DNA from: an uncultured Thermoleophilia bacterium
GTDB taxonomy: Bacteria; Actinomycetota; Thermoleophilia; UBA2241
DNA length: 64,000 bases
Direction: 5' to 3'
NCBI GenBank assembly: GCA_963814545.1
Contig: CAWFDC010000015.1
Coordinates: 75,565-139,564 of the forward strand
The position numbers were made by a program, and so were the translations under genes. Position 1 is the first letter of the stretch; each line of letters opens with the position of its first letter. The notes below the pieces were generated by a model that saw only the letters and a list, made by a program, of their open reading frames with translations, searched no databases and was not told the origin of the DNA. Of the stretch, positions 12,053-62,534 are shown one piece after another.

Positions 12053-12064
12053 GGGGGTGACGGG

Positions 12065-15465: not shown

Positions 15466-15633
15466 ATAGACGGTCGGACGGCTTCGACAGGGGGGCCGGG
15501 CTAAGCCCGGCGGCCTCGACGAGTGCGCGGTGTGGCCATCAGCAGCGGGGCCCGGTCCGTCGTCGCGCGCCTCGCCGGGGCACGTTCCGAGGCGCCCTCG
15601 TGCGCTCGCGCGAGGGCGGGAGAAGGGGGAAGG

Positions 15634-20010: not shown

Positions 20011-20646
20011 GTGAGCGACCAGTACGGACCACTGAAGCAGGCCGTGATCGACGGCAACGCCGACCTGACGAACGCGCTGGTCCAGGCGGCGCTGGCCCAG
20101 GGGCAGGCGCCCCGCGACATCCTCGAGGGTGCCCTGCTGCCCGGTATGGAGGTCGTCGGCCAGCGCATGAAGAGCGGCGAGTGCTTCATCCCCGAGGTGC
20201 TGCTCTCGGCGCGGGTCATGCAGGGCGCGCTCGACACCCTGCGGCCCCTCCTCGGCGAGGGCGAGGGCGGCGGCCTCGGCACCGTGGTCATCGGCACGGT
20301 CGAGGGCGACCTGCACGACATCGGCAAGAACCTCGTCGGCATGATGCTGTCGGGCGCCGGCTTCGAGGTCGTCAACCTCGGCACCGGGATCACCCCGGCG
20401 CAGTTCGTCGCCGCCGCCGAGGAGCACGGGGCGGCGATCGTCGGCATGAGCGCTCTGCTCACGACGACGATCCCGCGCATGAAGGAGACCATCGACGCCC
20501 TCGCCGCCGCCGGGCTCAGGGACAAGGTCAAGGTCATGATCGGCGGCGCCCCCGTCACCCAGGCCTTCGCCGACGAGATCGGCGCCGACGGTTACGGCGC
20601 CAACGCCGGCGCCGCCGTCGACCGTGCCAAGGCCCTGGTGAAGTGA
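20011..20646 (+). CDS. Corrinoid (cobalamin-binding) methyl-carrier protein, MttC/MtbC type
   Basis: B12-binding DxHxxG motif GTVEGDLHDIGKNLVG, then GMSALLTTT and MIGGAPVT, with an N-terminal helical cap domain. GTG start after AAGGAGACAGG. Confidence 0.9.
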   Translation: MSDQYGPLKQAVIDGNADLTNALVQAALAQGQAPRDILEGALLPGMEVVGQRMKSGECFIPEVLLSARVMQGALDTLRPLLGEGEGGGLGTVVIGTVEGDLHDIGKNLVGMMLSGAGFEVVNLGTGITPAQFVAAAEEHGAAIVGMSALLTTTIPRMKETIDALAAAGLRDKVKVMIGGAPVTQAFADEIGADGYGANAGAAVDRAKALVK

Positions 20647-43599: not shown

Positions 43600-43983
43600 C
43601 TAGTTCTTCGTCCAGACGATGCTCTCGAACTCGAGCCGGTCGCCGTTGACGGTGCCGGCCTCGGACTCCTCGCCGTCCATGACGAGCGAGATGTTGTCTC
43701 CGTCGACGGTGTAGGTCCCCTTGAACTCGATGTCCTCGCCGCCCATGGGGTTGGGCCCGGCGAGGGTGAACTCGCCGCCGTCCAAGGTGAGCGTGAAGTC
43801 CTTCATCGCGTCCTCGCCCTCGGTCATCGTGTACGAGCCGTCGACGCCGCCGCTGCCGCAGGCGGTGAGCGCGGCGGCGAGCAGCACGGTCAGCGCGAGG
43901 AGCACGAGGAGTGCGAGGAGCGGCGAGCGGGCGCGGTCACGCGAGCGGCCGGCGTGCGCGGGGCGGGGGTGGGCGTTGGACAT
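43600..43983 (-). CDS. Small secreted lipoprotein, unknown function
   Basis: Signal plus lipobox LLALLVLLALTVLLAAALTAC-GSGG. Only the 3' part of supplied ORF 43600..45123 is credible; ATG at 43983. Confidence 0.6.
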   Translation of the reverse strand: MSNAHPRPAHAGRSRDRARSPLLALLVLLALTVLLAAALTACGSGGVDGSYTMTEGEDAMKDFTLTLDGGEFTLAGPNPMGGEDIEFKGTYTVDGDNISLVMDGEESEAGTVNGDRLEFESIVWTKN

Positions 43984-44090
43984 GGGGCCTCCTGTCGTGG
44001 TCGACGCCGCCGCTGTGGTGGGCCGGCGGTCACGTGTGCAGTGAGTTACGGGTTCGCCCCGGGCGGCGTCTGACCTTCCAGGGTAAAGGG

Positions 44091-44162
44091 AGCGGGCCGC
44101 ACCAGTCGTCGCGGGGTGGGCCGCACCAGTCGTCGCGGAGCGGGCCGCACCAGTCGCCGCGG
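44091..44162. repeat. 24-bp tandem repeat x3 between hdrB and the lipoprotein gene
   Basis: AGCGGGCCGCACCAGTCGTCGCGG / GGTGGGCCGCACCAGTCGTCGCGG / AGCGGGCCGCACCAGTCGCCGCGG. Confidence 0.85.
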
Positions 44163-44252
44163 GAGTGAGGACGGACGAGCCGAGGGGCGGCGGGCCGTAC
44201 GGCCCGCCGCCCCTCGGCGACATCCAGGCGATCAGCGCCGCGGGGGAGCCCG

Positions 44253-45116
44253 TTACGCCATCACCGCGTGCGCGTCGATGAGGTGCTTGCTGACGCCGAT
44301 CGTCTTCTCGTCGAGGCCGATGGCGCGGCCGACGAGCTGGCTGAGGAAGAGCACGGGCACGCCGGCCCACGAGCTGTCCTTGCGCGCGATCTCGCTCTGG
44401 CGGCCGTCGAGGTTGACCTGGCAGAGCGGGCAGGCGACGGCGATCGCCTCGGCGCCGCAGTCGCGCGCGTCGCTCACGATGCGCCCCACGAGCCCGTCGA
44501 CGATCTCCTGCTCGGTGAGCGCCAGCGCGGCGCCGCAGCAGTCGGTCTTGTAGTTCCAGTCGACCGCCTCGCAGCCGAGGGCCTCGACGACGGCGTCCAT
44601 GTGCGTCGGGTACTCGGGGTCCTCGGCGAGGGTGACCTCGGGCGGGCGTGTGAGCAGGCAGCCGTAGTAGCAGGCCACCTTGAGGCCCTTGAACGGGCGC
44701 TTCACCTTGGCGGCGAGCGCCTCGAGGCCGACCGCGTCGTGATAGACGTCGACCAGGTTCTGCACGGTGACGCCGCCCTCGTAGCCGCGCCCGACGACCG
44801 AGCGCACGTCGTCGGCGACCGCCGGGTCGCGGGCGACCTCGTGCGCGCCGGTCTTGAAACGGCTGAAGCAGGCGGCGCAGGGCACGGCCACGGCGTCGAG
44901 CTTCAGGTCCTTCTCGACCTTGACCAGCTCGTTCACTGGCAGCGCCGTGGCGAGCAGGCGGTTGATCGAGTGCGCCGCGGTGTTGCCGCAGCACTCCCAG
45001 CCGGGGATCTCGACGAGGTCGAGGTCGAGCGTCCGCGCCGTGGCCCTGAAGCTGGCGTCGAACTCGCCCGAGGTGCCGTGCAGCGAGCAGCCGGGGTAGT
45101 AGGCGATACTCGTCAC
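44253..45116 (-). CDS. hdrB: Heterodisulfide reductase subunit B-like (two CCG domains)
   Basis: YYPGCSLHG, WECCGNTAAH, VPCAACF, YYGCLLTRP, TDCCGAALAL and VACPLCQVNLD. The GTG start overlaps the hdrC stop (GTGA). TAA stop. Confidence 0.9.
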   Translation of the reverse strand: MTSIAYYPGCSLHGTSGEFDASFRATARTLDLDLVEIPGWECCGNTAAHSINRLLATALPVNELVKVEKDLKLDAVAVPCAACFSRFKTGAHEVARDPAVADDVRSVVGRGYEGGVTVQNLVDVYHDAVGLEALAAKVKRPFKGLKVACYYGCLLTRPPEVTLAEDPEYPTHMDAVVEALGCEAVDWNYKTDCCGAALALTEQEIVDGLVGRIVSDARDCGAEAIAVACPLCQVNLDGRQSEIARKDSSWAGVPVLFLSQLVGRAIGLDEKTIGVSKHLIDAHAVMA

Positions 45117-45763
45117 GACGCACCTCCGCCCTCGTCGCCGGACGGCGCGGCCGCGCCCTTGCCGGACGGTGGGGCCGCGTCCTTGCCGGCCCGCGCCGCG
45201 CTCTTGGCCTCGCGGGCCCGGGTGAGACTCTCGGCGGTCTTGACCATGCGCTTCATGGCGTCGGTGTCGCCCTTCTTGAGCGTGGGGTTGATCTTGCCCT
45301 TGAGCAGCATCTTGGGCCCGAGCGAGAGCCACTCGAGGGCGCCCTTGGGCCGGCGCAGGGCGTCGCGCGCGATGAGCTCGACCTCCCACATGCGGCCCCA
45401 GCGGACGAACGAGTTGTAGTTGAGCTTGAGCATGGCCGCCGACGGGGCGTCCGGGTGCACCTTGCCCTCGCGCCAGGCGATGATCTTGAGCTCGTCCATG
45501 ATCGCCGCGATGTCGATGCCCTGCGGGCAGCGCGTGGTGCAGGTCTGGCACCCGGTGCACAGCCAGATGAACTTGTCGTCGAAGATCATGTCGTACTGTC
45601 CGAGCTGGACGGCACGCATGATCTGCGCCGGGTGCATGCCGGCGTGCTCGGCCACCGGGCACCCGGCCGTGCAGCGCTTGCACTGGTAGCAGAGGTAGGG
45701 GTTCTCGGCGCAGCCGGCCCCCACCTTGGTGGCGAGGACGCCGCTCGGTGTGCAGGTCGTCAT
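45113..45763 (-). CDS. hdrC: Heterodisulfide reductase subunit C-like (2x[4Fe-4S])
   Basis: CYQCKRCTAGCP and CTGCQTCTTRCP. ATG 45763 lies 5 nt after AGGAGGTG. Lys/Ala/Gly-rich C-terminal tail. Confidence 0.9.
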   Translation of the reverse strand: MTTCTPSGVLATKVGAGCAENPYLCYQCKRCTAGCPVAEHAGMHPAQIMRAVQLGQYDMIFDDKFIWLCTGCQTCTTRCPQGIDIAAIMDELKIIAWREGKVHPDAPSAAMLKLNYNSFVRWGRMWEVELIARDALRRPKGALEWLSLGPKMLLKGKINPTLKKGDTDAMKRMVKTAESLTRAREAKSAARAGKDAAPPSGKGAAAPSGDEGGGAS

Positions 45764-45772
45764 CCCCACCTC

Positions 45773-46717
45773 CTAGGCCACTGCCGGCCGCGGCATGAGG
45801 CCCGCGGCCTCGACGATCTCGGGCACCGCGGACTCCCACTCGATGGCCATGATGTGGACGCCGGCGACACCCTCGATCTCGGTGAACTCCTTGATCATCT
45901 CGACGGCGATCTTCTTGCCCTCGGCCTGCTGCGGGGCGCCCTTCTCGGGGACGGCCATGCGATCGACGATGTCCTGCGGGACGTCGATGCCGGGAACGAA
46001 CTTCTGCATGTAGCGCGCCCCGCCGACGCCCTTCAGCGGCGTGATGCCGGCGAGGATCTTGATCTCCTTGTGCAGGCCCAGGGCGCGCACCTCCTCCATC
46101 CACTTCTTGAACTTGGGGACGTTGAAGATGCACTGGGTCTGCATGAAGTCGGCGCCGGCCTCGATCTTCTTCTTGAGGCGCAGGGCGCGGAGGTCGAAGG
46201 GGTCGGCGAAGGGGTTCTCGGCGCAGCCGATGTAGAGCGGCGGCGCGACCGTCATCTCCTCGCCGCACTGGAACTTCTTCTCGTCGCGCATGTCCTTGTA
46301 CATCTTGATGAGGTTGATGGCGTCGAGGTCGTGCACGCCCCTGGCCTCGGGGTGGTTGCCGAAGCTCAGGTGGTCGCCGGTGAGGCAGAGGATGTTCTTG
46401 ATGCCCAGTGTGGCGGCGCCGAGGATGTCGGCCTGCATCGCCAGACGGTTGCGGTCGCGGCAGGTCATCTGCATGATCGCCTCGAGCCCGTTCTGCTGGG
46501 CGGTGTGGCCCGACGCCAGGGAGCACACGCGGACCACGGCGGTCTGGTTGTCGGTGATGTTGACGGCGTCGACGTAGCCCTTGAGGATCTTGGCCTTCTC
46601 CTCGATGACGGTGACGTCGGCGCCCTTGGGCGGGCCGCACTCGCCGGTGACGGCGAACTTGCCTTCGGCGAGGATCTTCTCGAGGTTGGAGCCGGCCTTG
46701 TATCCGTTGTCCCTCAT
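45773..46717 (-). CDS. metF: Methylenetetrahydrofolate reductase, acetogen-type MetF
   Basis: KFAVTGECGPPKGAD, VDAVNITDNQ, MTCRDRN, ILCLTGDH, FMQTQCIFN. The start overlaps the metV stop (ATGA). Stop is TAG. Confidence 0.9.
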   Translation of the reverse strand: MRDNGYKAGSNLEKILAEGKFAVTGECGPPKGADVTVIEEKAKILKGYVDAVNITDNQTAVVRVCSLASGHTAQQNGLEAIMQMTCRDRNRLAMQADILGAATLGIKNILCLTGDHLSFGNHPEARGVHDLDAINLIKMYKDMRDEKKFQCGEEMTVAPPLYIGCAENPFADPFDLRALRLKKKIEAGADFMQTQCIFNVPKFKKWMEEVRALGLHKEIKILAGITPLKGVGGARYMQKFVPGIDVPQDIVDRMAVPEKGAPQQAEGKKIAVEMIKEFTEIEGVAGVHIMAIEWESAVPEIVEAAGLMPRPAVA

Positions 46718-47397
46718 ACCGGCTTCGCCTCCTCGCGCACCATCTTGCGGGGGCCGCCGGAGCTGCTCTTGCTCCAGTTCTTCGGCGGCCGGTCGGTGAA
46801 CATGAGCTCTTCGCGGCCCTGTGCCTTGAGGCGCTCCCAGATGAGGGCCCAGGCGCACTCGATCTCTTCCTTGTCGGGCCCGGTGACTTCGCACAGGCCG
46901 TCGTGCGAACCGCCGCAAGGGCCGTTCATGAGGCTCTTGCTGCAGCGCACGACGGGGCAGATGCCGCCGGTCAGGCCGATGCGGCACTCGCCGCAGGCGA
47001 CGCAGCGCTCGAGCCACACGGCGTGCTCCTGCGGCATGCCCAGCATGTTGGTGTCGACGGCCGGCACGACGAGCCTGGGGGCGAACTTCTCGGCCATGCT
47101 CTGGATGCCGATGCCGCAGGCCATGCTGAGGACGACGTCGGCCTCCTCGACCTTGGCGGCGATCATGTCGAGGTACTCCCACTCGCACTGCCTGATGGCG
47201 GCGGTGTGCTCGACCTCGATCTCGCGGCCGTCGGCCTGTGCCTTCATGCGCAGCTCGCTGGCGAGGATCTCGGCCTCTTTCTCGCCTCCGGTGAGGCAGA
47301 TGGCGACGCAGGTGTCGCAGCCGGCGACGAGGATCTTCTTGTGTCCGGCGACGAGGTCCAGGATCTCGTCGAACGGCTTGCGTTCAGCGGTGATCAT
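46714..47397 (-). CDS. metV: MetV, zinc-ribbon/MTHFR-C-terminal-like small subunit of methylene-THF reductase
   Basis: ILVAGCDTCVAICLTGG, SMACGIGIQ and CVACGECRIGLTGGICPVVRCSKSLMNGPCGG. ATGA overlap with mvhD. Confidence 0.85.
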   Translation of the reverse strand: MITAERKPFDEILDLVAGHKKILVAGCDTCVAICLTGGEKEAEILASELRMKAQADGREIEVEHTAAIRQCEWEYLDMIAAKVEEADVVLSMACGIGIQSMAEKFAPRLVVPAVDTNMLGMPQEHAVWLERCVACGECRIGLTGGICPVVRCSKSLMNGPCGGSHDGLCEVTGPDKEEIECAWALIWERLKAQGREELMFTDRPPKNWSKSSSGGPRKMVREEAKPV

Positions 47398-48086
47398 TCG
47401 GCGGGTCCCTTCTCGGTGGTGGCGGAGGCGGTGTCGGGCGCCGGCGCGGCGGCGCCGGCCGGCGCCCCCTCGGGCATGGCCACGTCGCCGGCGGCCTCAC
47501 GGGCCGCGGCATGCGGCGACACGTCGTGGCGCCGCAGCGGGTTCGGCCCGAGGGCCTTGATCCGGTCGGTGAACTCGGTCGCGACGCGGGCGAACTCGGC
47601 GCCCATCGCCGACGACATGTTGTACATCTCCACGCGCTCGGGCTCGATGCCCACCTCGGCGAGGAGGGCCTTGACGTGGTCGACGCGCTTGCGCGCCCAG
47701 AGGTTGCCCTTGAGGTAGTGACACTCACCCTCGAGGCAGCCGGCGGCGTAGACGCCGTCGGCGCCGGCCTCGATCGCGCGCATGAGGTGGATGACCTCGA
47801 GCTTGCCCGTGCAGGGCAGCTTGATCATGCGGATGTTCGACGGGTATTGCAGGCGCATGCTGCCCGCCAGGTCGGCGGCGGCGTAGGCGCAGTAGTGACA
47901 GGCGAACACGATGATCTCGGGCTCGAAGTCGGGGTCGACGGGCTTCTTCGGCGCCTCGGTCTCGGCGGCCTCGGCGCCCTCGGGTGCGTCGGCGACGGCG
48001 GTCGGGGCGGAGGCCCCCGCCGTCGCCTGAGCCGTCGTGGCTGCCTGCGCCGTCGTGGCCGCGGTCACCTTCGGCTCCTCGGCCAT
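47394..48086 (-). CDS. mvhD: MvhD/FlpD-like (methyl-viologen-reducing hydrogenase delta subunit) electron-transfer protein with Ala/Thr-rich N- and C-terminal extensions
   Basis: IIVFACHYCAYAAADLAG, IKLPCTGKLEVIHLMRAIEAGADGVYAAGCLEGECHY. ATG 1 nt after the hdrA stop, preceded by GGAGGTGA. Confidence 0.85.
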   Translation of the reverse strand: MAEEPKVTAATTAQAATTAQATAGASAPTAVADAPEGAEAAETEAPKKPVDPDFEPEIIVFACHYCAYAAADLAGSMRLQYPSNIRMIKLPCTGKLEVIHLMRAIEAGADGVYAAGCLEGECHYLKGNLWARKRVDHVKALLAEVGIEPERVEMYNMSSAMGAEFARVATEFTDRIKALGPNPLRRHDVSPHAAAREAAGDVAMPEGAPAGAAAPAPDTASATTEKGPAE

Positions 48087-48087
48087 C

Positions 48088-51000
48088 TCAGCTCACCTCC
48101 ATGAAGAGCGCCTCTTCCTTGGCGAAGACCTGCGCGTCGGTGTAGTGGTGCAGGGTGATCGCCTTGACGGGGCACTCGCTGACGCACACGCCGCAGCCCT
48201 GGCAGGCGGCCGCCTCGATCTTGGCCTTCTTCGTGTCGGCCTCGATGATCGGCACCTCGTACGGGCAGATGCGCACGCAGGTGAGACACGCGGCGCACTT
48301 CTCCTGGTCGACCTCAGCGACGACGCCGCCGGCTTTGAGGGCCGGCTTGGCCAGGATGGCCGCGGCCCTCCCGGCGGCGGCGTAGGCCTGGCTGATCGTC
48401 TCGTCGATGCTCTTCGGGTAGTGCGCCGCCCCGGCGAGGAAGAGGCCCTCGCTGGAGAAGTCGACGGGCCGCAGCTTGACGTGCGCCTCGAGGTAGAAGC
48501 CGTCGGCGGTGAGCGGCACCTTGAGGAGTTTGGAGAGCGCTTCGCCGCCCTCGGCCGGGACCGCCGGCGTGGCGAGCACGAGCAAGTCGACCGGCAGCGT
48601 GATGTCGCGCCGCAGGAAGGGGTCGCGGTAGGCGACCTCGACCCTGCCGTTGGCGCTGACCACCGGCTTCGAGTCGTCGTCGTAGCGCGTGAAGACGACG
48701 CCGAGCTCGCGCGCCCGGGTGTAGTACTCCTCGAGGAGGCCGAAGGTGCGGACCTCCTTGAACCACACGTAGACGGGACGATCGGGGTCCTTCTCCTTGA
48801 GGGCGATGGCGTTCTTGATGCTCTGCTGGCAGCAGGTGCGCGAGCAGTAGGGTTTGTGCTCGTCGAGGGAGCCGGCGCAGAGGACGAAGCCGACGGCGCC
48901 GGCCGCGTGGAGCGCGGGATCCTCGTCCTTGAGCATGCGCTCGAGCTCCATGCCGGTCACGACCTTGGGGCTCGTGCCCAGACCGAAGAGCTCGGGCCGG
49001 TCCTCGTGGGAGCCGGTGGCGACGACGACGACGCCATGGTCGACCGGCGTGCGGGCGCCGTCCTTGGCTTTGACGACGCTCGAGAAGTTGCCGATGAAGC
49101 CGTGGAAGTCGACGAGTTCGCTCTCGAGGTGGATCCTGACGTTGGGGTTGTCGATGAGGCGCTGCTCGAGCTGCGCGACGAGCGCCGTCGGGTCGCCGCC
49201 GCGGATCGTGCGCCCGAGCTCGAGGACGTGGCCGCCGAGGCGCGGCGAGCGCTCCACGAGGTGTACCTCGTGGCCCATCTCGCCGAGCGCGGCGGCGGCC
49301 GTCATGCCGGCCACGCCGCCGCCGATCACGAGGGCGGCGTGGGTGAGCGGCACGTCGACCTTGTAGAGCGGCTCGAGCATGCGCGCCCGGGCGACCGACA
49401 TCCTGACGAGGTCTTTCGCCTTGTCGGTCGCCTTCTCGGGCTCGTTCGCGTGCACCCACGACGCCTGGTCGCGGATGTTGGCCATCTCGAAGAGGAACGG
49501 GTTGAGCCCGGCCTCGCGGAGCGTGTCCTGGAAGATGGGCTCGTGGGTGCGCGGCGTGCAGCTCGCGACCACGACGCGGTTGAGCTGGTGCTCCTCGATC
49601 TTCTCCTTGATCAGCGAGAGCGAGTCGCTCGAGCATGTGTACAGCGTGTCGGTGGCGAACTCGACGCCCGGAAGCTGCTGGGCGTAGTCGGCGACGCTCT
49701 CGACCCCGATCACGCCGGCGATGTTGGAGCCGCAGTGACAGACGAAGACGCCGATGCGCGGCTCCTCTTCGGAGACCGCGCGCTCGGCCGGGTACTCCCT
49801 CTCGACCGTGAGCGTGTCGCGCGAGTCGGCGAGGCCGGTCATCACCTGGGCGGCCGCGGCCGAGGCCTGGGCGACCGAGTCGGGGATGTCCTTGGGCTCG
49901 CCGAACGGCCCGGCCACGAAGACGCCCTTGCGGCTCGTCGCCAGCGGCTCGAATTCGTCCAGCTCGCAGAAGCCGTGGCGGTTGAGGGCGATGCCGAGGT
50001 GGCCGGCCGCCTCCTGCGCCTTGCGTGCGGGCTCGAGGCCGACCGAGAGCACGACCATGTCGAACCGGCTGGTCCGCATGTCGCCGCTCTCGTCCTCCCA
50101 GGTGATCAGGAGGTCGCCGGTCTTCGGGTCTTCCTTGATGGTCGAGGGCCGCGAACGCAGGAACTTGACCCCGCGGTCGACGGCGCGCTGGTAGAAGTCG
50201 TCGAAACCCTTGCCCTGGGCGCGCATGTCCATGAGGAAGACGGTGGGCTCGCAGTCGGCCACGTGGTCCATGGTGAGCATGGCCTGCTTGTTGGCGAACA
50301 TGCAGCAGACGCTCGAGCAGTACTCGTGCTCCTGGTCGCGCGAGCCGACGCACTGGATGAAGGCGACCTTCTTCGGGTGCCCGCCGTCGCTCGGGCGCTT
50401 CACGTCACCGACGGTCGGGCCTGAGGCGCTCAGCATGCGCTCGTACTCGAGCGCCGAGAGGACGTTGGGGTAGCGTCGGTAACCGTACTCGCTCTTCGCG
50501 CCGGGATCGTGAGCGTCGTAACCGGTCGCCAGGACGACGGCGCCGACGTCGATCTCGAGCTCGCGGTCACGCTCTTCATGGAGGAGGGCGCCGGGCCCGC
50601 AGGCGCGCACGCACTCCAGGCACTCCGAGCAGACTGCGCACTGGAGGCAGCGCTTCGCCTCGGCGATCGCTTGCGCCTCGGTGTAGCCCCGGCGCACCTC
50701 GACCCAGCTGCGGCGGCGCTCGGCGCCGTCGTGCTCGGGCATGCGCACGCGCGGCGCGGGGGCCGTCGCGGCCAGCGTCTCGTCGTCGGGGCGAGCCTCG
50801 GGGAGCGGGTCTTCCCACAGCGCCACGAGCTTCTCGCCGCGGAGGTGGTTGTGGATGGCCGCCGCGCCTTTGCGGCCGGCGGCGATCGCCTCGATCGCGG
50901 TGAGCGGGCCGGTCGGCGCGACGTCGCCGCCGGCGAAGACCCCGGGGCGGCCCGTGGCCATGGTCGCGGGGTCGGTCTTGACCGTGCCGCGCTCTATCTC

Positions 51001-52533
51001 GACCCCGTCGAGCTCCGCAGCGAAGTCGTCGACGATCGCCTGACCGATGGCGAAGATGACGGTGTCGCAGGCCAGTTCGACGAAGGCGTCCGGGATCGGC
51101 TCTGGGCGCCGACGGCCCTTCTCGTCGGGCTCGCCGAGACGCATGCGCTGGAGCTTGATGCCGCTGACCTTGCCGTCGCGGCCGAGGATCTCTTCGGGGG
51201 CGACCAGGTACTCGATGGCGAGCTGCTCGTCGACGCCCTCCTCGACCTCCTCGGGGCTGGCGGGCATCTCGTCTCGCGTGCGCCGGTAAGCGATGGTCAC
51301 GGCGGGGACCTTGCCCGACACTGACGTGAGACGCAACGCGGTCCGCGCGGTGTCGAAGGCCACGTCGCCGCCGCCGATGACGACCACGCGATCGCCGACC
51401 GACAGCGGGTCGTCGAGGTTCGCGTGGCGCAGGAACTCGACCGCGCTGAGGCAGCCCTCGAGGTCGTCGCCCCTGACCGGCGACGGCGCGTTCGTCTGCA
51501 GGCCGGCGGCGAGGTAGACGGCCTGGTAGCCGTCGTCGAGCAGGCCGTCGACGGTGAAGTCCACGCCGGCGCGCTGGCTGAGGCGCAGATCGACGCCGAG
51601 TGCCACGATCTGGTCGATCTCGCGCTGCAGGACCTCGCGCGGCAGGCGGTGGTCGGGGATGCCGACGCGCAGCATGCCTCCGGCCACCGGCAGGGCCTCG
51701 AAGACGGTGGTCGCGTAGCCCAGTTTGGCGAGGTCGCGGGCGCAGGAGAGCCCGGACGGCCCGCCGCCGACGATGGCGACCTTCTCGTCGTAGGTGACGG
51801 GCAGCTTCTCGGGCAGCTCCGTCGGGCCGGCGACGTCACAGACGAAGCGCTTGAGGCTGGCGATCGAGATGGGGTCGTCGACCGAGCCGCGCGTGCAGGC
51901 CGTCTCGCAGGGGTGCGCGCAGACTCGGCCGCAGACCGACGGGAACGGGTTGGGCTCGGCGGCGACACGGTAGGCGTCTGCGAAGCGACCCTCGGCGATG
52001 AGGGCGATGTAGCCCTGGGCCGAGGTCTCGACCGGGCAGGTGCTCTTGCAGGGCGCGTACCCCTTCTTGTCGACCACGTAAGTGGCGGGGATCGCCTGCG
52101 GGTAGAGCTTGTAGATCGCCGTGCGCTCGCCGAGCTCCTCGTTGTACTGGTCCTTGACCGTGACCGGGCACACCGGCACGCACTCGCCGCAGCTCGTGCA
52201 CTTGTCGGGGTCGACGAAACGGGCGTGGTGGTAGACCTTGGCGGTGAAGTGGCCGGGCTCGCCTTCGAGCCCGATCAGCTCCGAGTTGGTGACGATATCG
52301 ATGTTGAGGTGGCGGCCGGCCTCGACGAGCTTCGGCGCCAGGGTGCACATGGAGCAGTCGTTGGTGGGGAACGTCTTGTCGAGCTGGGCCATGTGCCCGC
52401 CCAGGGCCGGAGCCTTCTCGACGAGGTGCACCTTGTACCCGCCTTCGGCGAGGTCGAGAGCACACTGGATGCCCGCGACACCGCCACCGCAGACGAGGGC
52501 AGCACCGGTGGTCTTGGGGGGTGGACCCGGCAT
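48088..52533 (-). CDS. hdrA: Giant HdrA-family flavoprotein (1481 aa): HdrA interrupted by a GltD/NfnB-like NAD(P)H module, followed by a second HdrA-like unit (HdrL-type architecture)
   Basis: N-terminal HdrA LVCGGGVAGIQCALDLAEGG, NDCSMCTL, CTSCGECVPVCP. Insert CKSTCPVETSAQGYI, CGRVCAHPCETAC, VAIVGGGPSGLSCA, VVVIGGGDVAFD, GVFAGGDV. Return to HdrA CLQCAVCSECLECVRAC, FIQCVGSRD, VFVCHCGSNIAG. Second unit LVIGGGVAGMTAA, FVLCAGSLDEHKPYCSRTCC, CAACLTCVRICP, CQGCGVCVSECP. Confidence 0.9.
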   Translation of the reverse strand: MPGPPPKTTGAALVCGGGVAGIQCALDLAEGGYKVHLVEKAPALGGHMAQLDKTFPTNDCSMCTLAPKLVEAGRHLNIDIVTNSELIGLEGEPGHFTAKVYHHARFVDPDKCTSCGECVPVCPVTVKDQYNEELGERTAIYKLYPQAIPATYVVDKKGYAPCKSTCPVETSAQGYIALIAEGRFADAYRVAAEPNPFPSVCGRVCAHPCETACTRGSVDDPISIASLKRFVCDVAGPTELPEKLPVTYDEKVAIVGGGPSGLSCARDLAKLGYATTVFEALPVAGGMLRVGIPDHRLPREVLQREIDQIVALGVDLRLSQRAGVDFTVDGLLDDGYQAVYLAAGLQTNAPSPVRGDDLEGCLSAVEFLRHANLDDPLSVGDRVVVIGGGDVAFDTARTALRLTSVSGKVPAVTIAYRRTRDEMPASPEEVEEGVDEQLAIEYLVAPEEILGRDGKVSGIKLQRMRLGEPDEKGRRRPEPIPDAFVELACDTVIFAIGQAIVDDFAAELDGVEIERGTVKTDPATMATGRPGVFAGGDVAPTGPLTAIEAIAAGRKGAAAIHNHLRGEKLVALWEDPLPEARPDDETLAATAPAPRVRMPEHDGAERRRSWVEVRRGYTEAQAIAEAKRCLQCAVCSECLECVRACGPGALLHEERDRELEIDVGAVVLATGYDAHDPGAKSEYGYRRYPNVLSALEYERMLSASGPTVGDVKRPSDGGHPKKVAFIQCVGSRDQEHEYCSSVCCMFANKQAMLTMDHVADCEPTVFLMDMRAQGKGFDDFYQRAVDRGVKFLRSRPSTIKEDPKTGDLLITWEDESGDMRTSRFDMVVLSVGLEPARKAQEAAGHLGIALNRHGFCELDEFEPLATSRKGVFVAGPFGEPKDIPDSVAQASAAAAQVMTGLADSRDTLTVEREYPAERAVSEEEPRIGVFVCHCGSNIAGVIGVESVADYAQQLPGVEFATDTLYTCSSDSLSLIKEKIEEHQLNRVVVASCTPRTHEPIFQDTLREAGLNPFLFEMANIRDQASWVHANEPEKATDKAKDLVRMSVARARMLEPLYKVDVPLTHAALVIGGGVAGMTAAAALGEMGHEVHLVERSPRLGGHVLELGRTIRGGDPTALVAQLEQRLIDNPNVRIHLESELVDFHGFIGNFSSVVKAKDGARTPVDHGVVVVATGSHEDRPELFGLGTSPKVVTGMELERMLKDEDPALHAAGAVGFVLCAGSLDEHKPYCSRTCCQQSIKNAIALKEKDPDRPVYVWFKEVRTFGLLEEYYTRARELGVVFTRYDDDSKPVVSANGRVEVAYRDPFLRRDITLPVDLLVLATPAVPAEGGEALSKLLKVPLTADGFYLEAHVKLRPVDFSSEGLFLAGAAHYPKSIDETISQAYAAAGRAAAILAKPALKAGGVVAEVDQEKCAACLTCVRICPYEVPIIEADTKKAKIEAAACQGCGVCVSECPVKAITLHHYTDAQVFAKEEALFMEVS

Positions 52534-52814
52534 AGGCGAACTCCTTCGACGAGCGAGCGGCTGGCCAAGAAACGTGGGTGATCGCAGACTCCGCGACCCA
52601 CTGGGATGTGGCTCAAGTATAGCCGAGCGCTCGCGCCTTCGTCCACAAGCGGACCGAGTTTCTGAGGAGCCTCGTCAAGGGGGTTGAGTGTACGGGGACG
52701 CTCCGACGAATCCGGGCCTCCGCCGGGCTCCGGGAGCACCTATGATTGAGCCGCGAAGGGCGCCCGGCGCCCGGCGGCGGCCGCACGAGCAAGAGACCGA
52801 AAGGCAGGCCCTTG

Positions 52815-54360
52815 ATGACGACTCCAGCCACGCCCGGCCCTCCGGCCGAAGGGGTGGACCCGCCTCGGCCCGGCCCGGCCGGAGACGCCGACCCGCCGGC
52901 ACTCGGCCCGGCCAGATCAGCCGACCCGCTCGGGTTCGACCCGGCCGGATCAGCCGACCCGCTCGGGTTCGACCCGGCCGGATCAGCCGACCCGCTTGGG
53001 TTCGACCCGGCCGAGATGCGCCGCCTGGGTCACTGGGTGGTCGACCGCGTGATCGAGCACCTCGAGGGCCTGCCTCAGCAGCCGGCGGTGCGGACCGGCG
53101 CGCCCGCCGAGCTGGAGGCGGCCCTCGGCGGCCCGCCGCCGGAGAAGGGCGGCGACGCGCGCGAGGCGCTCGAGCTGCTGACCGAGGTCGCGCTCGCACA
53201 CATGCAGCACGGCGACCACCCGCGGTACTTCGCCCGCGTGCCCAGCCCAGCGTCTTTTCGCCGCCGTGCTCGGCGACTGGCTGGGTACGGGGTTCAACGC
53301 GATCGCCGCCTCGTGGAGCGGGGGCTCCGGGCCGACGACCGTCGAGCTCGTCGCGCTGGAGTGGCTGCGCGAGCTGACGGGTCTGCCCCCGGGCACGGAG
53401 GGGATCATGACGAGCGGCGGCTCGGCGGCGAACCTGACGGCGCTGGCCGCGGCGCGGGCGATCGAGGGGCCGGGGGTCTGCTATCTCTCCGACCAGACCC
53501 ACGCGTCGATCGCCCGCGGGCTGCGGGTGCTGGGCTTCCCGCCCGAGCACATCCGCGTGCTGCCCTCCGACGAGGGCCTACGCCTGCCGCTCGAGCCCCT
53601 CGCCGCCGCGGTGCGCGCCGATGCGGCCGCCGGCCGCCGGCCGGGCTTCGTCGTCGCCACGGCCGGTACCACGAACACCGGCGCCGTCGACCCCCTGCCG
53701 GAGCTCGCCGGACTCTGCCGGTCAGAGGGGCTGTGGCTGCACGTCGATGGGGCCTACGGCGCCGCGGCCGTCCTCTGCGACGCCGGCCGACGTCGGCTCG
53801 CCGGCGTCGAGCGCGCCGACTCGCTGGTGCTCGACCCGCACAAGTGGCTCTTCCAGCCGTACGACCTCGGCTGCGTCTTCGTGTCGCGCCCGGGCGTGCT
53901 CGAGCGCGCCTTCACGATGACACCCGAGTATCTCGCCGACGTGACGGGGTCGGGGGGCGAGGTCGACCTGCGCGACCGCGGCCTCGAGTTGTCGCGCCGC
54001 GCACGCGGGCTCAAGCTCTGGCTGACCTTCCGCGTGTACGGGGTGGCGCGGCTGCGCGCCGCCGTCGCGCACGGGATCGCCCTCGCCGAGCACGCCGAGC
54101 GGCTGCTGGCGGCCGACCCGCGCTGGGAGGTGGTGACGCCGGCGTCGCTCGGTATCGTCACCTTCGCCCTGCGTGGAGCGGGGCCCGAGGAGCACCAGGC
54201 TCGCGCCGCCGAGCTCGCGCGCGGCGGGTACGCGGCGGTGACCAGCACGCGCGTGCAGGGTCGCCCGGTGGTGCGGCTCTGCACCATCAACCCGCGCACG
54301 ACGCCCGACGACATCGCGGGGACGCTGGCCCGCCTGGGGGTGAGCCTCGGGGACGTCTGA
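52815..54360 (+). pseudogene. Group II PLP-dependent amino-acid decarboxylase (aromatic-amino-acid/diaminobutyrate decarboxylase family); one frameshift at a T4 run, tandem repeat in the N-terminus
   Basis: N-terminal part in the ORF 52746 frame (DPAEMRRLGHWVVDRVIEHLEGL, HPRYFARVPSP). The rest is in ORF 53266..54360 (MTSGGSAANLTALAAAR, HVDGAYGAAA, DPHKWLFQPYDLG with the PLP lysine). The frames join if TTTT at 53255-53258 is read as TTT. Confidence 0.8.
52915..53013 (+). repeat. In-frame 33-bp tandem repeat x3 inside the decarboxylase N-terminus
   Basis: GATCAGCCGACCCGCTCGGGTTCGACCCGGCCG x3 (one mismatch in copy 3), encoding (G)SADPLGFDPA three times. Confidence 0.9.
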
Positions 54361-59545: not shown

Positions 59546-62534
59546 TCAGAGCGGCAGCCGCTCCGGCCGCCGCCGGGCGGCCCGGCCGTCGCCGTCGAGC
59601 GGTCCCAGCCAGCGGTCGAGCAGCCCGCTGCGCCAGATCCAGCGCACGAGCATCAGCCAGCCGAAGGCCGCCGCGCCGAGCGCCGCGTACTGGTAGAGCG
59701 GCAGCGGCGTGAGCTCGAAGAGCGTCCGGCCGCCCGCGGTCGCGACGCTGACGACGAGCACGACGAAGAGCAGCACCGTGAGCGCGGCGAAGCGCCAGTC
59801 GCGGCGCAGCGGGGCGCCGCCGACCCACCACTCGCTCGGCGGCGCCAGCAGCGGCACCACGAGGATCCCGCAGAGGGCGGCGAAGATCGTGGTCGCGGTC
59901 TGCACCGGCGGGAGCGCGTTGAGGAGCAGGTCGGCCTCGCTGGCGCCGGGGTGATCGGCCAGGTAGAGGCTCTCGTGCACCGCCGCCCAGATGTAGTAGA
60001 CGGTCATGGTCATGAGCCACTGCGCGACCGCCGCCGGCAGCACGAAGCGCGCCAGCCGGCGGAAGAGGCTGGTCTTGGGGACGGGGCCGGGCTTGGCCCA
60101 GACGGCGAAGGCGACGGCGGGGATGCCGGCGCCGATGAAGCTCAGCATCGACGCCTGGCGCGGCGCGAAGGGGAAGCCGCCGGCGGCGGCGACCACGCCG
60201 ACCACCCCCGCCTTGGCGAGGATGCTGCACCATGAACATGCGCAGGATGTCGTTCATGCCGTTGAGGATGCGCTGTCCCTCGCGGAAGGCGTAGGGCAGC
60301 ACGTCGAAGGAGTCGTTGAGCAGCACGAGGTCGGCGACGCCGCGCGCCGCCTGGGCGCCGCCGTTCATGGCGACGCTCACGTTGGCCTCCTTGAGGGCGA
60401 CGACGTCGTTGACGCCGTCGCCGATCATCGCCACGTGGCGGCCGCGGCGGCGCAGCGCCTGGAGCAGGCGCTGCTTCTGCTCGGGGGTGACGCGGCCGAA
60501 GATGCGCGTGCGTGCGGCGGCCGCGTCGAACTCGTCGCGCGAGAGGGCGTCGAGGTCGGCGCCCGAGAGCGTGGCGAAGCCGGTGACGTCGGTCGTCTCG
60601 GCTGCGCCCTCGGGGACGACGCGGATGCGCTCGTCGGCCGCGCCGGCTCCGGCCGGCGACTCGCCGGGCTGGAGGCCGGCCTGCAGGGCGATGGCCGCGA
60701 CGGTGCGCGGGTCGTCGCCGGAGATGACCTTGACCTCGATGCCCGGCCTGGCCGAACTCCTCGAGCGTCGTCTGCACGTGCGGGCGCAGCTCGTCGCGGA
60801 GGCTGACGACGGCGAGGGGGCGCAGGCCCGGCGGCAGCTCGGGCTCGTCGGCGAAGGCCACCGGCTCGGGCGCGGCGGCGAAGAGGAGGACGCGGTAGCC
60901 GGCGGCGGCGAGGCGCGCGGCGTGCTCGCGCCAGTGCGCGCCGCGCGCCTCGCCGCCCGGTCGCGTCGCCGGCCGCGACGAAGGCCTCGTCGCCGAAGAG
61001 CGCCGGCTGCGCGGGGCCGCGGCTCCGGCCGCCGCGTCGCCGGCGGCGTCTCGTCGCCCCCGGCGCCGGCCCGGCCGGGCGCCGCCGCCTCGTCCGCCGC
61101 GCCGTCCTCGCCGGCCGCGCCGCTCCGCCGCGCCCGTGCCGCCGGCGCGGCCACGGCCACAGGTCCCAGCGCGAGGGCTCCTGCCAGGCCGGCACCGCGG
61201 CCGGGTCGACGGGCCGCTCGACGCCCGCGGCCGGCTCGGGTCGCCGGGCGCGTCCCCGGCCGCCTCCCCGGGCGCGACGAAGCCGGCGCCGTCGGGGCAG
61301 AGCCGCGCCCACGACCTCGGGCGCCCCGAGCACGTAGGTGCCGCGCAGGGCGCCCTCCTCGAAAGTCGAGGCCGCTCCACTTGCGCCGCGACGAGAACAG
61401 CGCCTCGCTCGACGGCCGCCGGCGGATGCCGTGGTAGGCCCTCGCGAGGGCCTCGACGGTGCGGTTCACGTCGGTCGTGGTGGCGGCGTAGTCGCCGAGC
61501 AGGGTCTCGAGGTCCTCGTCGGCGTCGTCGAGCGGCGTCATCTCGTGCAGGCTGATCACGTTGGAGGTCAGCGTCCCCGTCTTGTCGGTGCAGAGGACGT
61601 CGACGTTGGAGAGCGACTCCACGGCGTTGGCCTGCTGGATCAGCATCCCCTTGCCCAGCATGCGGACGGCGCCGAGGGCGTAGGCGAGGGCGATCGAGAG
61701 CACGAGGCCGTTGGGGATGAGGGCGACGACGACGGTCGACATGCGCACGCCCTCGACGAACGGCAGGTGCTCGCTGATGCTGCGGCTCCAGACGAGGACG
61801 GTGAAGGCGAGCACGACGATGAGCAGCGTGCGGATGATGAGGTAGACCTCGCGCTGCAGGGGCGTCAGCTCGCGGCGGTAGCTGGTCGCCTTGGCGGTGA
61901 GCTTGTTGGCGAAGCTCTCGAGCCCGACCTTCTCGGCCTCGTAGTGGCCGCCGCCGGTGGCGCAGAAGCTGCCCGAGAGCAGGGCGTCGCCGTCGGTCTT
62001 GAGGACGAGGTCGGACTCACCGGTGAGGAGCGACTCGTCGACCTCGAGCCGGCCCTCGCCGCGCACGCGCCCGTCGACGACTATCTGGTCGCCGGGGCGC
62101 AGGCGGAGCAGGTCGCCGACCACGATCTCCGAGGGGTCGACCTCGCGCTCGGCGCCGTCGCGCACGACCGTCGCCTTGGGGCGCGTCAGGATCGCGATGC
62201 GGTCGATGGTGCGCTTGGCGCGGATCTCCTGAAAGAGGCTGACGAGCGTGTTGGCCAGGATCACGCCGACGGCGACGAAGGCGTCGAGGTAGCGGCCGAG
62301 GACGACGAGGAGGATCCCGAGGCCGAAGTAGAGGTTGTTGATGAAGTTGAAGACGTTGGCGCGGACGATCTGCTTGTAGGTGCGGCCGGCGTGCACCTGG
62401 ACGTCGTTGCCCTGGCCGGCGGCGCGGCGGCGCGCCGCTTCGGCGTCGCTGAGACCGCGCGCCGGGGCGCCGCCGGCCCCCGCTCCGGGGGTCGCGCCGA
62501 CGGGCTGCTCTGTGCCGTTGGGGGACGGGCTCAC
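59546..62534 (-). pseudogene. Cation-translocating P-type ATPase (P2/unclassified type); frame broken several times within the N-domain region
   Basis: TGES loop LLTGESDLVL and phosphorylation site LCTDKTGTLT (ORF 59286..62957 frame). LGAPEVV (ORF 60425 frame). GYRVLLFAAA...LRDELRP (ORF 60142 frame). VKVISGDD, MIGDGVNDVVALKEANVSVAM. C-terminal helices in ORF 59546..60205. A very GC-rich low-complexity stretch lies at about 60950-61330. Confidence 0.8.

What the first reader, a model, noticed from the sequence alone, without database searches (positions are those of the whole stretch)
44253..52533. MetFV-HdrCB-MvhD cluster headed by a 1481-aa HdrA with a built-in NAD(P)H module
Six minus-strand genes are packed with 1-nt gaps or overlapping start/stop codons: giant hdrA, mvhD, metV, metF, hdrC and hdrB. 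The gene set matches the methylene-THF reductase/heterodisulfide-reductase complex described for acetogens such as Moorella thermoacetica. Here HdrA is not the usual roughly 650-aa protein. Its N-terminal FAD domain is interrupted by a GltD/NfnB-like unit with two Cys clusters and two GxGxxG dinucleotide sites. It then resumes and is followed by a second complete HdrA-like unit. This resembles the HdrL proteins noted in some sulfate reducers. The architecture would hard-wire an NAD(P)(H) site into a putative electron-bifurcating MTHFR. It lies 22 kb from the Pyl methylamine operon, so the complex could run in reverse to oxidise methyl-THF derived from methylamines.
Basis: partly seen in the sequence, partly recalled or inferred. 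Interest (0 to 1): 0.75.

Follow-up and report, generated by a model that had tools for sequence, protein, structure and literature searches.

The report
Moorella-type Hdr-linked methylene-THF reductase operon
The six genes are real and encode a methylene-tetrahydrofolate reductase joined to heterodisulfide-reductase-like subunits, but the giant NAD(P)H-binding HdrA that looked unusual is the same design already described for the purified Moorella thermoacetica enzyme, so this is an ordinary new member from an uncultured actinobacterium.

Summary
Window 44253-52533 (minus strand) holds hdrA (1481 aa), mvhD, metV, metF, hdrC and hdrB, tightly packed between a promoter-like site and a strong hairpin. 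In HdrA, a GltD/NfnB-like FAD/NAD(P)H/2x[4Fe-4S] module (residues ~155-634) sits exactly between the two Cys motifs of the "inserted ferredoxin" domain of a first HdrA unit. A second, complementary HdrA unit follows (922-1481).

This is not a departure from the Moorella complex. Kremp et al. 2022 describe M. thermoacetica HdrA as 1487 aa with the same GltD-interrupted N-terminal unit, a C-terminal unit starting at residue 922, and E/K flavin signatures at near-identical positions. The same gene order is published for Hakuba Actinobacteria. Full-length collinear homologues occur in cultured Desulfotomaculia and in MAGs of more than ten phyla, usually next to metVF.

New details are minor. The module is StnC-like (Lys ligand) and carries a YRR (NADPH-type) motif, while sister Thermoleophilia carry an acidic motif. 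The link to methylamine use is plausible but untested: no Wood-Ljungdahl or methyl-corrinoid:THF methyltransferase genes lie in the window. Verdict: new member of a known kind, low interest.

The parts
52616..52645 (-). sigma-70-like promoter candidate (TGGACG-18-TATACT), about 85 nt upstream of the hdrA ATG
   Evidence: the only promoter-like match in 43900-53400 (0.4 expected in shuffles). This is a consensus match only.
48088..52533 (-). hdrA, 1481 aa: tandem HdrA with an inserted GltD-like NAD(P)H module (Moorella/HdrL type)
52222..52533 (-). HdrA unit 1, first part of the thioredoxin-reductase-like FAD domain (aa 1-104). FAD GxGxxG at 16-21. C63 is the equivalent of Cys197 of M. thermolithotrophicus HdrA.
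   Evidence: aa 9-160 align with 5odc_A 143-294. Invariant residues.
52072..52221 (-). first half of the HdrA 'inserted ferredoxin' domain (aa 105-154; C112, C115, C118, C122)
   Evidence: these Cys are invariant
50632..52071 (-). GltD/StnC/NfnB-like module (aa 155-634). Eight Cys for two [4Fe-4S] clusters (C162, C166, C201, C205, C209, C213, C629, C632) plus K228. FAD site G256-G261. NAD(P)H site G387-A392 with Y416-R417-R418.
   Evidence: 9bov_A 2.3e-120, StnC 8oh5_C 3.3e-104, NfnL 5jca_L 3.9e-88, NfnB 4ylf_B 1.7e-86. NF009410 above its cut-off. Foldseek ranks the same proteins first.
50584..50631 (-). second half of the inserted ferredoxin domain (aa 635-650; C635, C638, C641, C645)
   Evidence: aa 635 aligns with 5odc_A residue 293, so the module is inserted exactly between the two cluster motifs
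49819..50583 (-). HdrA unit 1, remainder of the FAD domain (aa 651-905). [4Fe-4S] motif C728-VGSRD...C739-x3-C743-C744. E698/K749 flavin signature.
   Evidence: 5odc_A 304-567; signature definition from PMC9430772
48091..49770 (-). HdrA unit 2 (aa 922-1481). N-terminal cluster domain (C932, C934, C967, C992), FAD domain (G1071; C1219, C1230, C1234, C1235; E1198/K1240) and C-terminal 2x[4Fe-4S] ferredoxin domain (C1413-C1454). No inserted Fd domain and no Cys197 equivalent.
   Evidence: aligns with 5odc_A 2-234 and 338-652, E 2.8e-129
47394..48086 (-). mvhD, 230 aa: FlpD domain at aa 58-180 with 5 Cys, flanked by Ala/Thr/Pro/Glu-rich tails
46714..47397 (-). metV, 227 aa (MTHFR C-terminal-like, Cys-rich)
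45773..46717 (-). metF, 314 aa (MTHFR TIM barrel, acetogen/MetV-dependent type)
   Evidence: below the cut-off of the NAD(P)H-type MTHFR equivalog (84.8 vs 293.7 bits).
45113..45769 (-). hdrC, 218 aa, two CxxCxxCxxxC motifs (C27-C37, C71-C81)
44253..45116 (-). hdrB, 287 aa, two complete CCG motifs (C10...C42C43...C80xxC83; C153...C193C194...C229xxC232)
44179..44218 (-). perfect 18-bp G+C hairpin about 35 nt after the hdrB stop; probable 3' end of the operon (no U-tract)
   Evidence: -65.9 kcal/mol for the 93-nt stretch, z = -5.95, 0 of 200 shuffles as stable

Best explanation
The cluster encodes an orthologue of the Hdr-type ('type IV') methylene-tetrahydrofolate reductase MetFV-HdrCBA-MvhD first purified from Moorella thermoacetica, here in an uncultured, 72% G+C Thermoleophilia-like actinobacterium. 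HdrA is a single-chain pseudo-heterodimer. Unit 1 supplies the Cys197-type ligand and the inserted ferredoxin domain. Unit 2 supplies the N-terminal cluster domain and the C-terminal ferredoxin domain that docks MvhD. Proposed electron path (inferred by homology): NAD(P)H donates a hydride to the FAD of the GltD-like module. Electrons then pass singly through its two [4Fe-4S] clusters into the two clusters of the split inserted ferredoxin domain, and on to the HdrA flavin(s), which carry the E/K signature of bifurcating HdrA. One branch runs HdrC -> HdrB -> MetV -> MetF(flavin) -> methylene-THF (E0' -200 mV). The other runs through unit 2/MvhD to a low-potential acceptor, ferredoxin or flavodoxin, which has not been identified in any organism. 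The GltD-like module is most like that of StnC/NfnABC (Lys228 in place of the NfnB Glu ligand). It is therefore more likely a plain NAD(P)H entry/exit port than a second bifurcation site. Its YRR motif suggests NADPH rather than NADH. The reaction is reversible in principle, so in a methyl-oxidising organism the same complex would confurcate. Shown: genes, domains, ligand conservation, synteny. Inferred: complex formation, electron path, bifurcation, nucleotide preference, direction.
For: Gene content and packing.
Domain map against solved HdrA and GltD-like structures.
Conservation: all 38 cluster-ligand Cys, K228, R296, E698/K749 and E1198/K1240 are invariant in homologues down to 54% identity.
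Literature description of Moorella HdrA: 1487 aa, GltD domain interrupting the N-terminal TrxR/Fd unit, C-terminal unit 922-1487, E696/K750 and E1204/K1246, 3 FAD, one NAD(P)H site (PMC9430772). The Moorella complex reduces methylene-THF with reduced benzyl viologen and reduces benzyl viologen with NADH (PMC5861303).
Same gene order hdrA-mvhD-metVF-hdrCB in Hakuba Actinobacteria (PMC7325909), whose HdrA (P0125, 1469 aa) is collinear with the window protein at 45% identity.
Synteny: 25 of 80 genome loci share the exact gene order, and about 57 of 80, from more than 10 phyla, have metV and/or metF within 10 kb of the giant hdrA.
StnC role and Lys ligand: PMC10482914.
YRR motif shared with NADPH-binding StnC, NfnL, NfnB and Bfu-NfnA.
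Against: No enzyme of this type has been shown to bifurcate. The second acceptor of the Moorella complex is unknown, and NADH-driven methylene-THF reduction needed a viologen mediator. In Sporomusa ovata the Hdr subunits did not co-purify with MetVF, and a membrane-linked, non-ferredoxin model was proposed. The Moorella enzyme uses NADH, whereas the window motif looks NADPH-type. I could not obtain the Moorella sequence to calibrate the motif. The AlphaFold model of residues 1-921 was low-confidence (pLDDT 63, pTM 0.38), so inter-domain distances are untested.
Confidence: 0.85

Rival explanations
1. Same enzyme, but its physiological direction here is oxidative. Methyl groups stripped from tri-/dimethylamine and quaternary amines by the Pyl and non-Pyl MttB-family methyltransferases reach methyl-THF. 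The complex then oxidises methyl-THF to methylene-THF, confurcating with reduced ferredoxin to make NAD(P)H. It is compatible with the best explanation for what the enzyme is.
For: The window holds TAG-containing mtbB and mttB with PYLIS elements, a corrinoid protein and two uninterrupted MttB-family genes. In the Thermoleophilia relative L048, hdrB is followed on the same strand by genes for a flavodoxin-like protein, a corrinoid protein and an MtmB-family protein. Two Bacillota loci have corrinoid-protein genes within 10 kb.
Against: There are 22 kb and about 20 unrelated genes between the operons. Only 1 of about 17 Thermoleophilia loci shows adjacency. No methyl-corrinoid:THF methyltransferase, folD, fhs, fdh or acs genes are in the window. 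The same complex occurs in acetogens and in sulfate reducers that use the pathway reductively or bidirectionally.
Confidence: 0.3
2. A non-bifurcating NAD(P)H:methylene-THF oxidoreductase. The Hdr-like subunits only wire the GltD-like flavin to MetFV, and there is no second acceptor and no energy coupling.
For: No second acceptor has ever been found for the Moorella complex. The StnC-type GltD module is non-bifurcating. Non-bifurcating HdrA-containing complexes exist.
Against: Both HdrA flavin sites keep the E/K signature used to separate bifurcating from non-bifurcating HdrA. Nine clusters, three flavins and MvhD are conserved across phyla, which is far more than a simple wire needs.
Confidence: 0.2
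3. A structurally new HdrA variant that distinguishes this cluster from the Moorella-type enzyme.
For: It is much larger than methanogen HdrA (654 aa) and than Sporomusa ovata HdrA (101 kDa, no GltD).
Against: The published description of Moorella HdrA matches domain by domain and almost residue by residue. Collinear 1464-1483-aa homologues occur in cultured Desulfotomaculum, Desulforamulus, Desulfoscipio, Desulfallas and Desulfofalx and in Ca. Hakubella.
Confidence: 0.03
4. The long ORF is an assembly artefact fusing separate genes.
For: Other long genes in the window are frame-broken: sdhA and a P-type ATPase. The assembly therefore contains indels or pseudogenes.
Against: More than 100 independent clusters have the same length and 100% coverage. 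There are 80 genome loci from many phyla. The coding frame is continuous. The insertion point falls precisely between two cluster motifs.
Confidence: 0.01

Closest known systems
MetFV-HdrCBA-MvhD methylene-THF reductase of Moorella thermoacetica (Mock et al. 2014; HdrA architecture in Kremp et al. 2022, PMC9430772)
   Same: Same six subunits. HdrA is about 1480 aa, with a GltD domain interrupting the N-terminal TrxR/Fd unit, a C-terminal unit from residue 922 lacking the inserted Fd domain, and E/K signatures in both units.
   Different: Gene order: hdrCBA-mvhD-metVF in Moorella, hdrA-mvhD-metVF-hdrCB here. The host is an actinobacterium, not a firmicute acetogen. The NAD(P)H motif here is YRR (NADPH-like), while the Moorella enzyme was assayed with NADH. 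No direct sequence comparison was possible.
hdrA-mvhD-metVF-hdrCB cluster of Hakuba Actinobacteria / Ca. Hakubella thermalkaliphila (PMC7325909)
   Same: Identical gene order and the same phylum. HdrA is 1469 aa and collinear with the window protein (45% identity).
   Different: Different class. That genome has a documented Wood-Ljungdahl pathway; here its presence is unknown.
HdrL of Desulfobacterium autotrophicum and Syntrophobacter fumaroxidans (PMC2702500, PMC5947623)
   Same: A large HdrA/glutamate-synthase-small-subunit fusion with an NAD(P)H site, followed by mvhD.
   Different: HdrL loci are linked to dsr, fdh or hdrABC genes, and some contain selenocysteine. Here the partners are metVF/hdrCB and all ligands are Cys.
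HdrA9-11 of ANME-1 archaea (PMC9012536)
   Same: An NfnB-like insertion of about 500 aa in the inserted ferredoxin domain of HdrA.
   Different: Archaeal, not clustered with metF, and not described there as a tandem fusion.
GltD-like domain of StnC (Sporomusa ovata StnABC, 8OH5) and NfnA of Bfu-type NfnABC (9BOV, 9N5U)
   Same: Best structural and sequence match of the insert. The C-terminal placement of the RCLQC segment, the Lys cluster ligand (K228 = StnC K170) and the YRR NADPH motif are shared.
   Different: In those enzymes the module is fused to NuoG/FdhF-like domains and feeds a HydBC-type bifurcating core, not HdrA.
Sporomusa ovata HdrA of its MetVF-Hdr cluster (PMC9430772)
   Same: A tandem HdrA associated with MetVF.
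   Different: 101 kDa, no GltD module, and only one unit has the E/K signature.

Membership tests
Hdr-type (type IV) MTHFR, MetFV-HdrCBA-MvhD (Moorella type) | metF, metV, hdrA, hdrB, hdrC and mvhD encoded together in one transcription unit | tested here: met
   six co-directional genes with gaps of 9 nt or less or overlaps, one promoter-like site upstream, one hairpin downstream
Hdr-type (type IV) MTHFR, MetFV-HdrCBA-MvhD (Moorella type) | HdrA of about 1480 aa: an N-terminal TrxR-like plus Fd unit interrupted by a GltD (FAD, NAD(P)H, [4Fe-4S]) domain, and a C-terminal HdrA unit from about residue 922 without an inserted Fd domain | tested here: met
   compared with the published description
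Hdr-type (type IV) MTHFR, MetFV-HdrCBA-MvhD (Moorella type) | E356/K409-type flavin signature in both TrxR-like domains | tested here: met
   E698/K749 and E1198/K1240, invariant in homologues. Moorella has E696/K750 and E1204/K1246.
Hdr-type (type IV) MTHFR, MetFV-HdrCBA-MvhD (Moorella type) | MetF of the MetV-dependent type rather than the NAD(P)H-binding E. coli type | tested here: met
   PF02219 with an adjacent PF12225 MetV. NCBIfam NAD(P)H-MTHFR equivalog scores 84.8 bits against a cut-off of 293.7.
Hdr-type (type IV) MTHFR, MetFV-HdrCBA-MvhD (Moorella type) | direct sequence orthology to Moth_1191-1196 | not tested
   The Moorella sequences could not be retrieved: the Mock 2014 paper is not held, and Moorella is not among the best 120 hits of a Bacillota query.
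Hdr-type (type IV) MTHFR, MetFV-HdrCBA-MvhD (Moorella type) | hexameric complex with NADH:viologen and viologen:methylene-THF activities | not testable with these tools
   biochemical
HdrL (HdrA/GltD fusion of sulfate reducers) | large HdrA carrying a GltD-like NAD(P)H-binding domain, followed by mvhD | tested here: met
   definition
Methanogen-type CoB-CoM heterodisulfide reductase HdrABC | scores above the curated equivalog cut-offs for HdrA, HdrB and HdrC | tested here: not met
   HdrA2 981.8 vs 1100, HdrA 673 vs 1400, HdrC 76.8 vs 160, HdrB 144 vs 345. These are Hdr-like proteins, not a CoM-S-S-CoB reductase.
NfnAB transhydrogenase (NfnB subunit) | Glu ligand at the proximal cluster, N-terminal CLQC segment, NfnA partner | tested here: not met
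   Lys228 occupies the position of the Glu, and the RCLQC segment lies C-terminal of the Rossmann domains. No NfnA-like gene is in the operon.
Stn/Bfu-type NADPH module (StnC, NfnA of NfnABC) | GltD-like domain with a Lys ligand, fused to a NuoG/FdhF-like domain and partnered with HydBC-like subunits | tested here: not met
   Module-level similarity only. No NuoG-, NuoF- or NuoE-like genes are present.

The most novel reading that the evidence does not exclude
In this Thermoleophilia lineage the complex could be an NADPH-linked, ferredoxin-confurcating methyl-THF dehydrogenase. It would channel methyl groups from pyrrolysine-dependent methylamine methyltransferases and non-Pyl MttB-family enzymes into catabolism. 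That would be a methylotrophic, non-acetogenic use of the Hdr-MTHFR in Actinomycetota. The YRR-versus-acidic motif switch among close relatives, and between paralogues in Desulfotomaculum nigrificans and Desulfofalx alkaliphila, would mark NADPH- and NADH-specific versions of the enzyme.
Probability: 0.2. Interest if true: 0.55.

Novelty: new member of a known kind. Interest (0 to 1): 0.25.

Why it matters
Methylene-THF reduction is the most exergonic step of the Wood-Ljungdahl pathway. Whether and how it is coupled to energy conservation is still an open question. This locus does not make that question more testable than Moorella or the cultured Desulfotomaculia already do.

Its value is mainly in annotation. 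Proteins of this family are labelled 'FAD-dependent oxidoreductase', 'NAD(P)-binding protein' or 'glutamate synthase' in databases, although they are the HdrA of an Hdr-type MTHFR.

Three side observations could guide experiments on the known enzymes:
- the family is spread over more than ten phyla and almost always sits next to metVF;
- its NAD(P)H port is StnC-like;
- its nucleotide-specificity motif comes in two forms.

Tried and rejected
1. Walking along the window's own contig to look for Wood-Ljungdahl genes failed. Neither a window protein nor P0001 is on record in the gene-position index.
2. The Mock et al. 2014 paper (PMC4135698) is not held. The supplement of Kremp et al. holds no alignment.
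3. A second protein search, with a Bacillota homologue (L038), aimed to retrieve the Moorella HdrA. Moorella was not among the best 120 hits, but cultured Desulfotomaculia and Ca. Hakubella were.
4. The AlphaFold2 model of HdrA residues 1-921 had mean pLDDT 63 and pTM 0.38, with cluster-binding regions below 50. I used it only qualitatively: Foldseek ranks the NfnABC/StnC/NfnL modules first, then HdrA.
5. An Rfam scan found no riboswitch upstream of hdrA; the only hits were the two PYLIS elements.
6. Literature searches for Thermoleophilia combined with pyrrolysine, MttB or Wood-Ljungdahl found nothing relevant.
7. The ORF 52983-53408 (minus strand) upstream of hdrA is rejected as an operon member. 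It has no Pfam hit, is not conserved in relatives and overlaps the divergent PLP-decarboxylase gene.

Full report
**Observation.** The window is about 72% G+C, so long spurious ORFs are common. I therefore used third-position G+C and Pfam to call genes. On the minus strand between 44253 and 52533 there are six real genes:
- hdrA, 48088-52533, 1481 aa
- mvhD, 47394-48086, FlpD domain, E 1.4e-48
- metV, 46714-47397, PF12225, 4.2e-31
- metF, 45773-46717, PF02219, 4.3e-45
- hdrC, 45113-45769, two 4Fe-4S motifs
- hdrB, 44253-45116, two complete CCG motifs

The junctions are a 1-nt gap, ATGA, ATGA, a 3-9-nt gap and GTGA. One promoter-like site lies about 85 nt upstream of hdrA. A perfect 18-bp G+C hairpin follows hdrB (z = -5.95).

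**Anatomy of HdrA.** I aligned the protein to solved structures.
- Residues 9-160 match Methanothermococcus thermolithotrophicus HdrA (5ODC) residues 143-294, and residues 635-903 match 293-567. The first HdrA unit therefore starts directly with the FAD domain and has no N-terminal cluster domain. It keeps the Cys197 equivalent (C63).
- Its "inserted ferredoxin" domain is split exactly between its two CxxCxxCxxxC motifs (C112-C122 and C635-C645) by about 480 residues.
- That insert is a GltD-like module: eight Cys, an FAD site at G256 and an NAD(P)H site at G387.
- Its best matches are the GltD-like domains of C. saccharolyticus NfnABC (9BOV, 2.3e-120), StnC (8OH5, 3.3e-104) and T. sibiricus NfnA. 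NfnL and NfnB (about 1e-87) and glutamate synthase small subunits follow.
- As in StnC, the RCLQC segment lies after the Rossmann domains. The cluster ligand that is Glu in NfnB is Lys here (K228 = StnC K170).
- Residues 922-1481 match 5ODC 2-234 and 338-652. This gives an N-terminal cluster domain, an FAD domain and a C-terminal ferredoxin domain, but no inserted ferredoxin domain and no Cys197 equivalent.
- The two units are therefore complementary halves of a pseudo-heterodimer, not two complete copies.
- All cluster Cys, K228, R296 and the E/K pairs E698/K749 and E1198/K1240 are invariant in homologues down to 54% identity.
- None of the curated methanogen Hdr equivalog cut-offs is reached. 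These are Hdr-like proteins, not a CoM-S-S-CoB reductase.

**Is it an artefact?** No. More than 100 protein clusters of 1478-1510 aa cover 100% of the ORF at 68-85% identity, most from Thermoleophilia/Actinomycetota MAGs. A scan of one genome per species gave at least 426 related loci. The best 80 all match residues ~1-1480. This holds although two other long genes in the window are frame-broken: sdhA and a P-type ATPase.

**What is already known.** Kremp, Roth and Müller (2022, PMC9430772) describe the HdrA of the Moorella thermoacetica metVF-hdrCBA-mvhD cluster. It is 162.8 kDa. Its C-terminal part, aa 922-1487, resembles methanogen HdrA without the inserted Fd domain. [quoted passage not shown] The authors predict eight clusters, three FAD and one NAD(P)H site, and give E696/K750 and E1204/K1246. 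The window protein matches this nearly residue for residue.

Other published precedents:
- The HdrA/GltD fusion was named HdrL in 2009 and was detected in the Syntrophobacter proteome.
- NfnB-like insertions in the inserted Fd domain are described for ANME-1 HdrA.
- The exact gene order hdrA-mvhD-metVF-hdrCB is published for Hakuba Actinobacteria. Their HdrA (P0125, 1469 aa) is collinear with the window protein.
- Collinear homologues (45-49% identity over about 1480 positions) also occur in cultured Desulfotomaculum, Desulforamulus, Desulfoscipio, Desulfallas, Desulfofalx and Desulfohalotomaculum.

**Comparative context.** Of the 80 genome loci, 25 have exactly the window's gene order. About 57 have metV and/or metF within 10 kb, in at least five arrangements. 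They come from Thermoleophilia, Chloroflexota, Desulfobacterota, Planctomycetota, Acidobacteriota, Myxococcota, Gammaproteobacteria, Bacillota, Spirochaetes and others. One Syntrophorhabdaceae locus has the Moorella order. A neighbour-joining tree puts the window with L001, L002, L003 and L010 inside a Thermoleophilia clade. The association of the giant HdrA with MetFV is thus old and conserved, which supports a single functional complex.

**Mechanism.** The best-supported reading is the Moorella-type NAD(P)H-dependent, putatively electron-bifurcating methylene-THF reductase. The reaction is 2 NAD(P)H + methylene-THF + Fd(ox) -> 2 NAD(P)+ + methyl-THF + Fd(red).

I infer the GltD-like module is the NAD(P)H port, by analogy with StnC, which "shuttles electrons from NADPH" to a separate bifurcating core and is itself non-bifurcating. 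The module is wired into the very domain that hands electrons to ferredoxin in methanogen HdrA. The HdrA flavins keep the bifurcation signature. HdrC/HdrB would pass the high-potential electron to MetV/MetF. Unit 2 and MvhD would serve the low-potential branch.

None of this has been shown for this protein. Even for Moorella the second acceptor is unknown, and for Sporomusa ovata a different, membrane-linked model exists.

**Nucleotide preference.** The window has VTIAYRRTRDEMPA, the motif of the NADPH-binding StnC, NfnL, NfnB and Bfu-NfnA. A sister Thermoleophilia subclade (L004-L009, L013, L016, L039, L040, L048, L052, L058) has VTINCIEDD. Planctomycetes and Bryobacterales have CLE(S/E)-type motifs. 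Desulfotomaculum nigrificans and Desulfofalx alkaliphila each carry one paralogue of each type. By the general rule for Rossmann folds, Arg-Arg points to NADPH and an acidic residue to NADH. That is my inference.

**Physiological direction.** The Pyl operon is real. In-frame TAG codons at 18002 and 19395 are each followed by an Rfam PYLIS element. The window also holds two uninterrupted MttB-family genes. In one relative (L048) the hdr-met operon is directly followed by genes for a flavodoxin-like protein, a corrinoid protein and an MtmB-family protein.

This makes a link to methyl-group metabolism plausible, but it is thin. It is one of about 17 Thermoleophilia loci. The separation here is 22 kb. 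The window has no methyl-corrinoid:THF methyltransferase and no Wood-Ljungdahl genes. The rest of the genome could not be examined.

**Verdict.** The methylamine link remains open. The locus is a new, uncharacterised member of a known enzyme family, in a lineage (Thermoleophilia) for which I found no published description. Interest is low (0.25). The modest new points are the StnC-like nature of the NAD(P)H module, the two-state nucleotide motif and the breadth of the family.

Noticed in passing
window 16970-18394 and 18414-19883 (+): mtbB and mttB each carry one in-frame TAG (18002-18004, 19395-19397). Each TAG is followed immediately by an Rfam PYLIS element (RF02509 77 bits; RF02510 76 bits). 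A corrinoid-protein gene lies at 20011-20646 and a solute-binding protein gene at 15532-16830. No pylSBCD genes were seen in the window. I found no paper describing pyrrolysine use in Thermoleophilia.
   Followed up: partly
window 9600-11060 (+) and 20643-22103 (+): Two uninterrupted (non-Pyl) MttB-superfamily genes of 486 aa each. They are candidates for quaternary-amine:corrinoid methyltransferases.
   Followed up: no
window 11301-14487 (+): A succinate dehydrogenase/fumarate reductase operon (sdhC, sdhD, sdhA, sdhB). The flavoprotein gene is split over three reading frames: FAD_binding_2 profile 2-166 in ORF 12065-, profile 161-414 in ORF 12519-13535, and the C-terminal domain in 13559-13768. 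This is either indel errors or a pseudogene.
   Followed up: partly
window 59558-62456 (-): A P-type cation ATPase, syntenic with the intact 916-aa gene in relative L081. Here it is broken over three frames, with about 400 nt covering only about 27 residues of the homologue.
   Followed up: partly
homologues of window HdrA aa 383-430; loci L004-L009, L013, L016, L039, L040, L048, L052, L058; proteins P0145/P0147, P0163/P0164: The NAD(P)H-site motif of the giant HdrA family comes in two forms: YRR(T/S), as in NADPH-binding GltD-like modules, and an acidic CIEDD/CLESR/SLEAEG form. Both occur among close Thermoleophilia relatives, and as paralogue pairs within Desulfotomaculum nigrificans and Desulfofalx alkaliphila. 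This may be an NADPH/NADH specificity switch.
   Followed up: partly
L082 1432-15665 (also L018, L041, L042, L044, L045, L054, L061, L063, L068, L076, L077): A second cluster type holds mvhD, a 287-aa metF and three glutamate-synthase-large-subunit-like genes (PF01645, PF01645, PF01493/GATase). These are followed by hdrC, hdrB, the giant hdrA, mvhD and metV. It is found in Bryobacteraceae, Anaeromyxobacter, Myxococcales and Gaiellales MAGs. In that context the GltD-like insert sits beside GltB-like partners.
   Followed up: no
L048 18266-22959: In a Thermoleophilia relative (HdrA 73% identical), hdrB is followed on the same strand by genes for a flavodoxin-like protein, a corrinoid protein and an uninterrupted 459-aa MtmB-family protein. 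A DUF1638 gene lies on the opposite strand.
   Followed up: partly
L026, L027, L031, L051, L053, L057, L069, L073: Eight loci (Anaerolineae, Planctomycetota, Clostridia, a termite-gut spirochaete) have the order metV-metF-hdrC-hdrA-mvhD, with no detectable hdrB and only a short hdrC match.
   Followed up: no
window 47394-48086 (-): MvhD has Ala/Thr/Pro/Glu-rich low-complexity tails of about 55 aa (N-terminal) and about 50 aa (C-terminal) around the 123-aa FlpD domain. The relative L081 has a 195-aa version.
   Followed up: no
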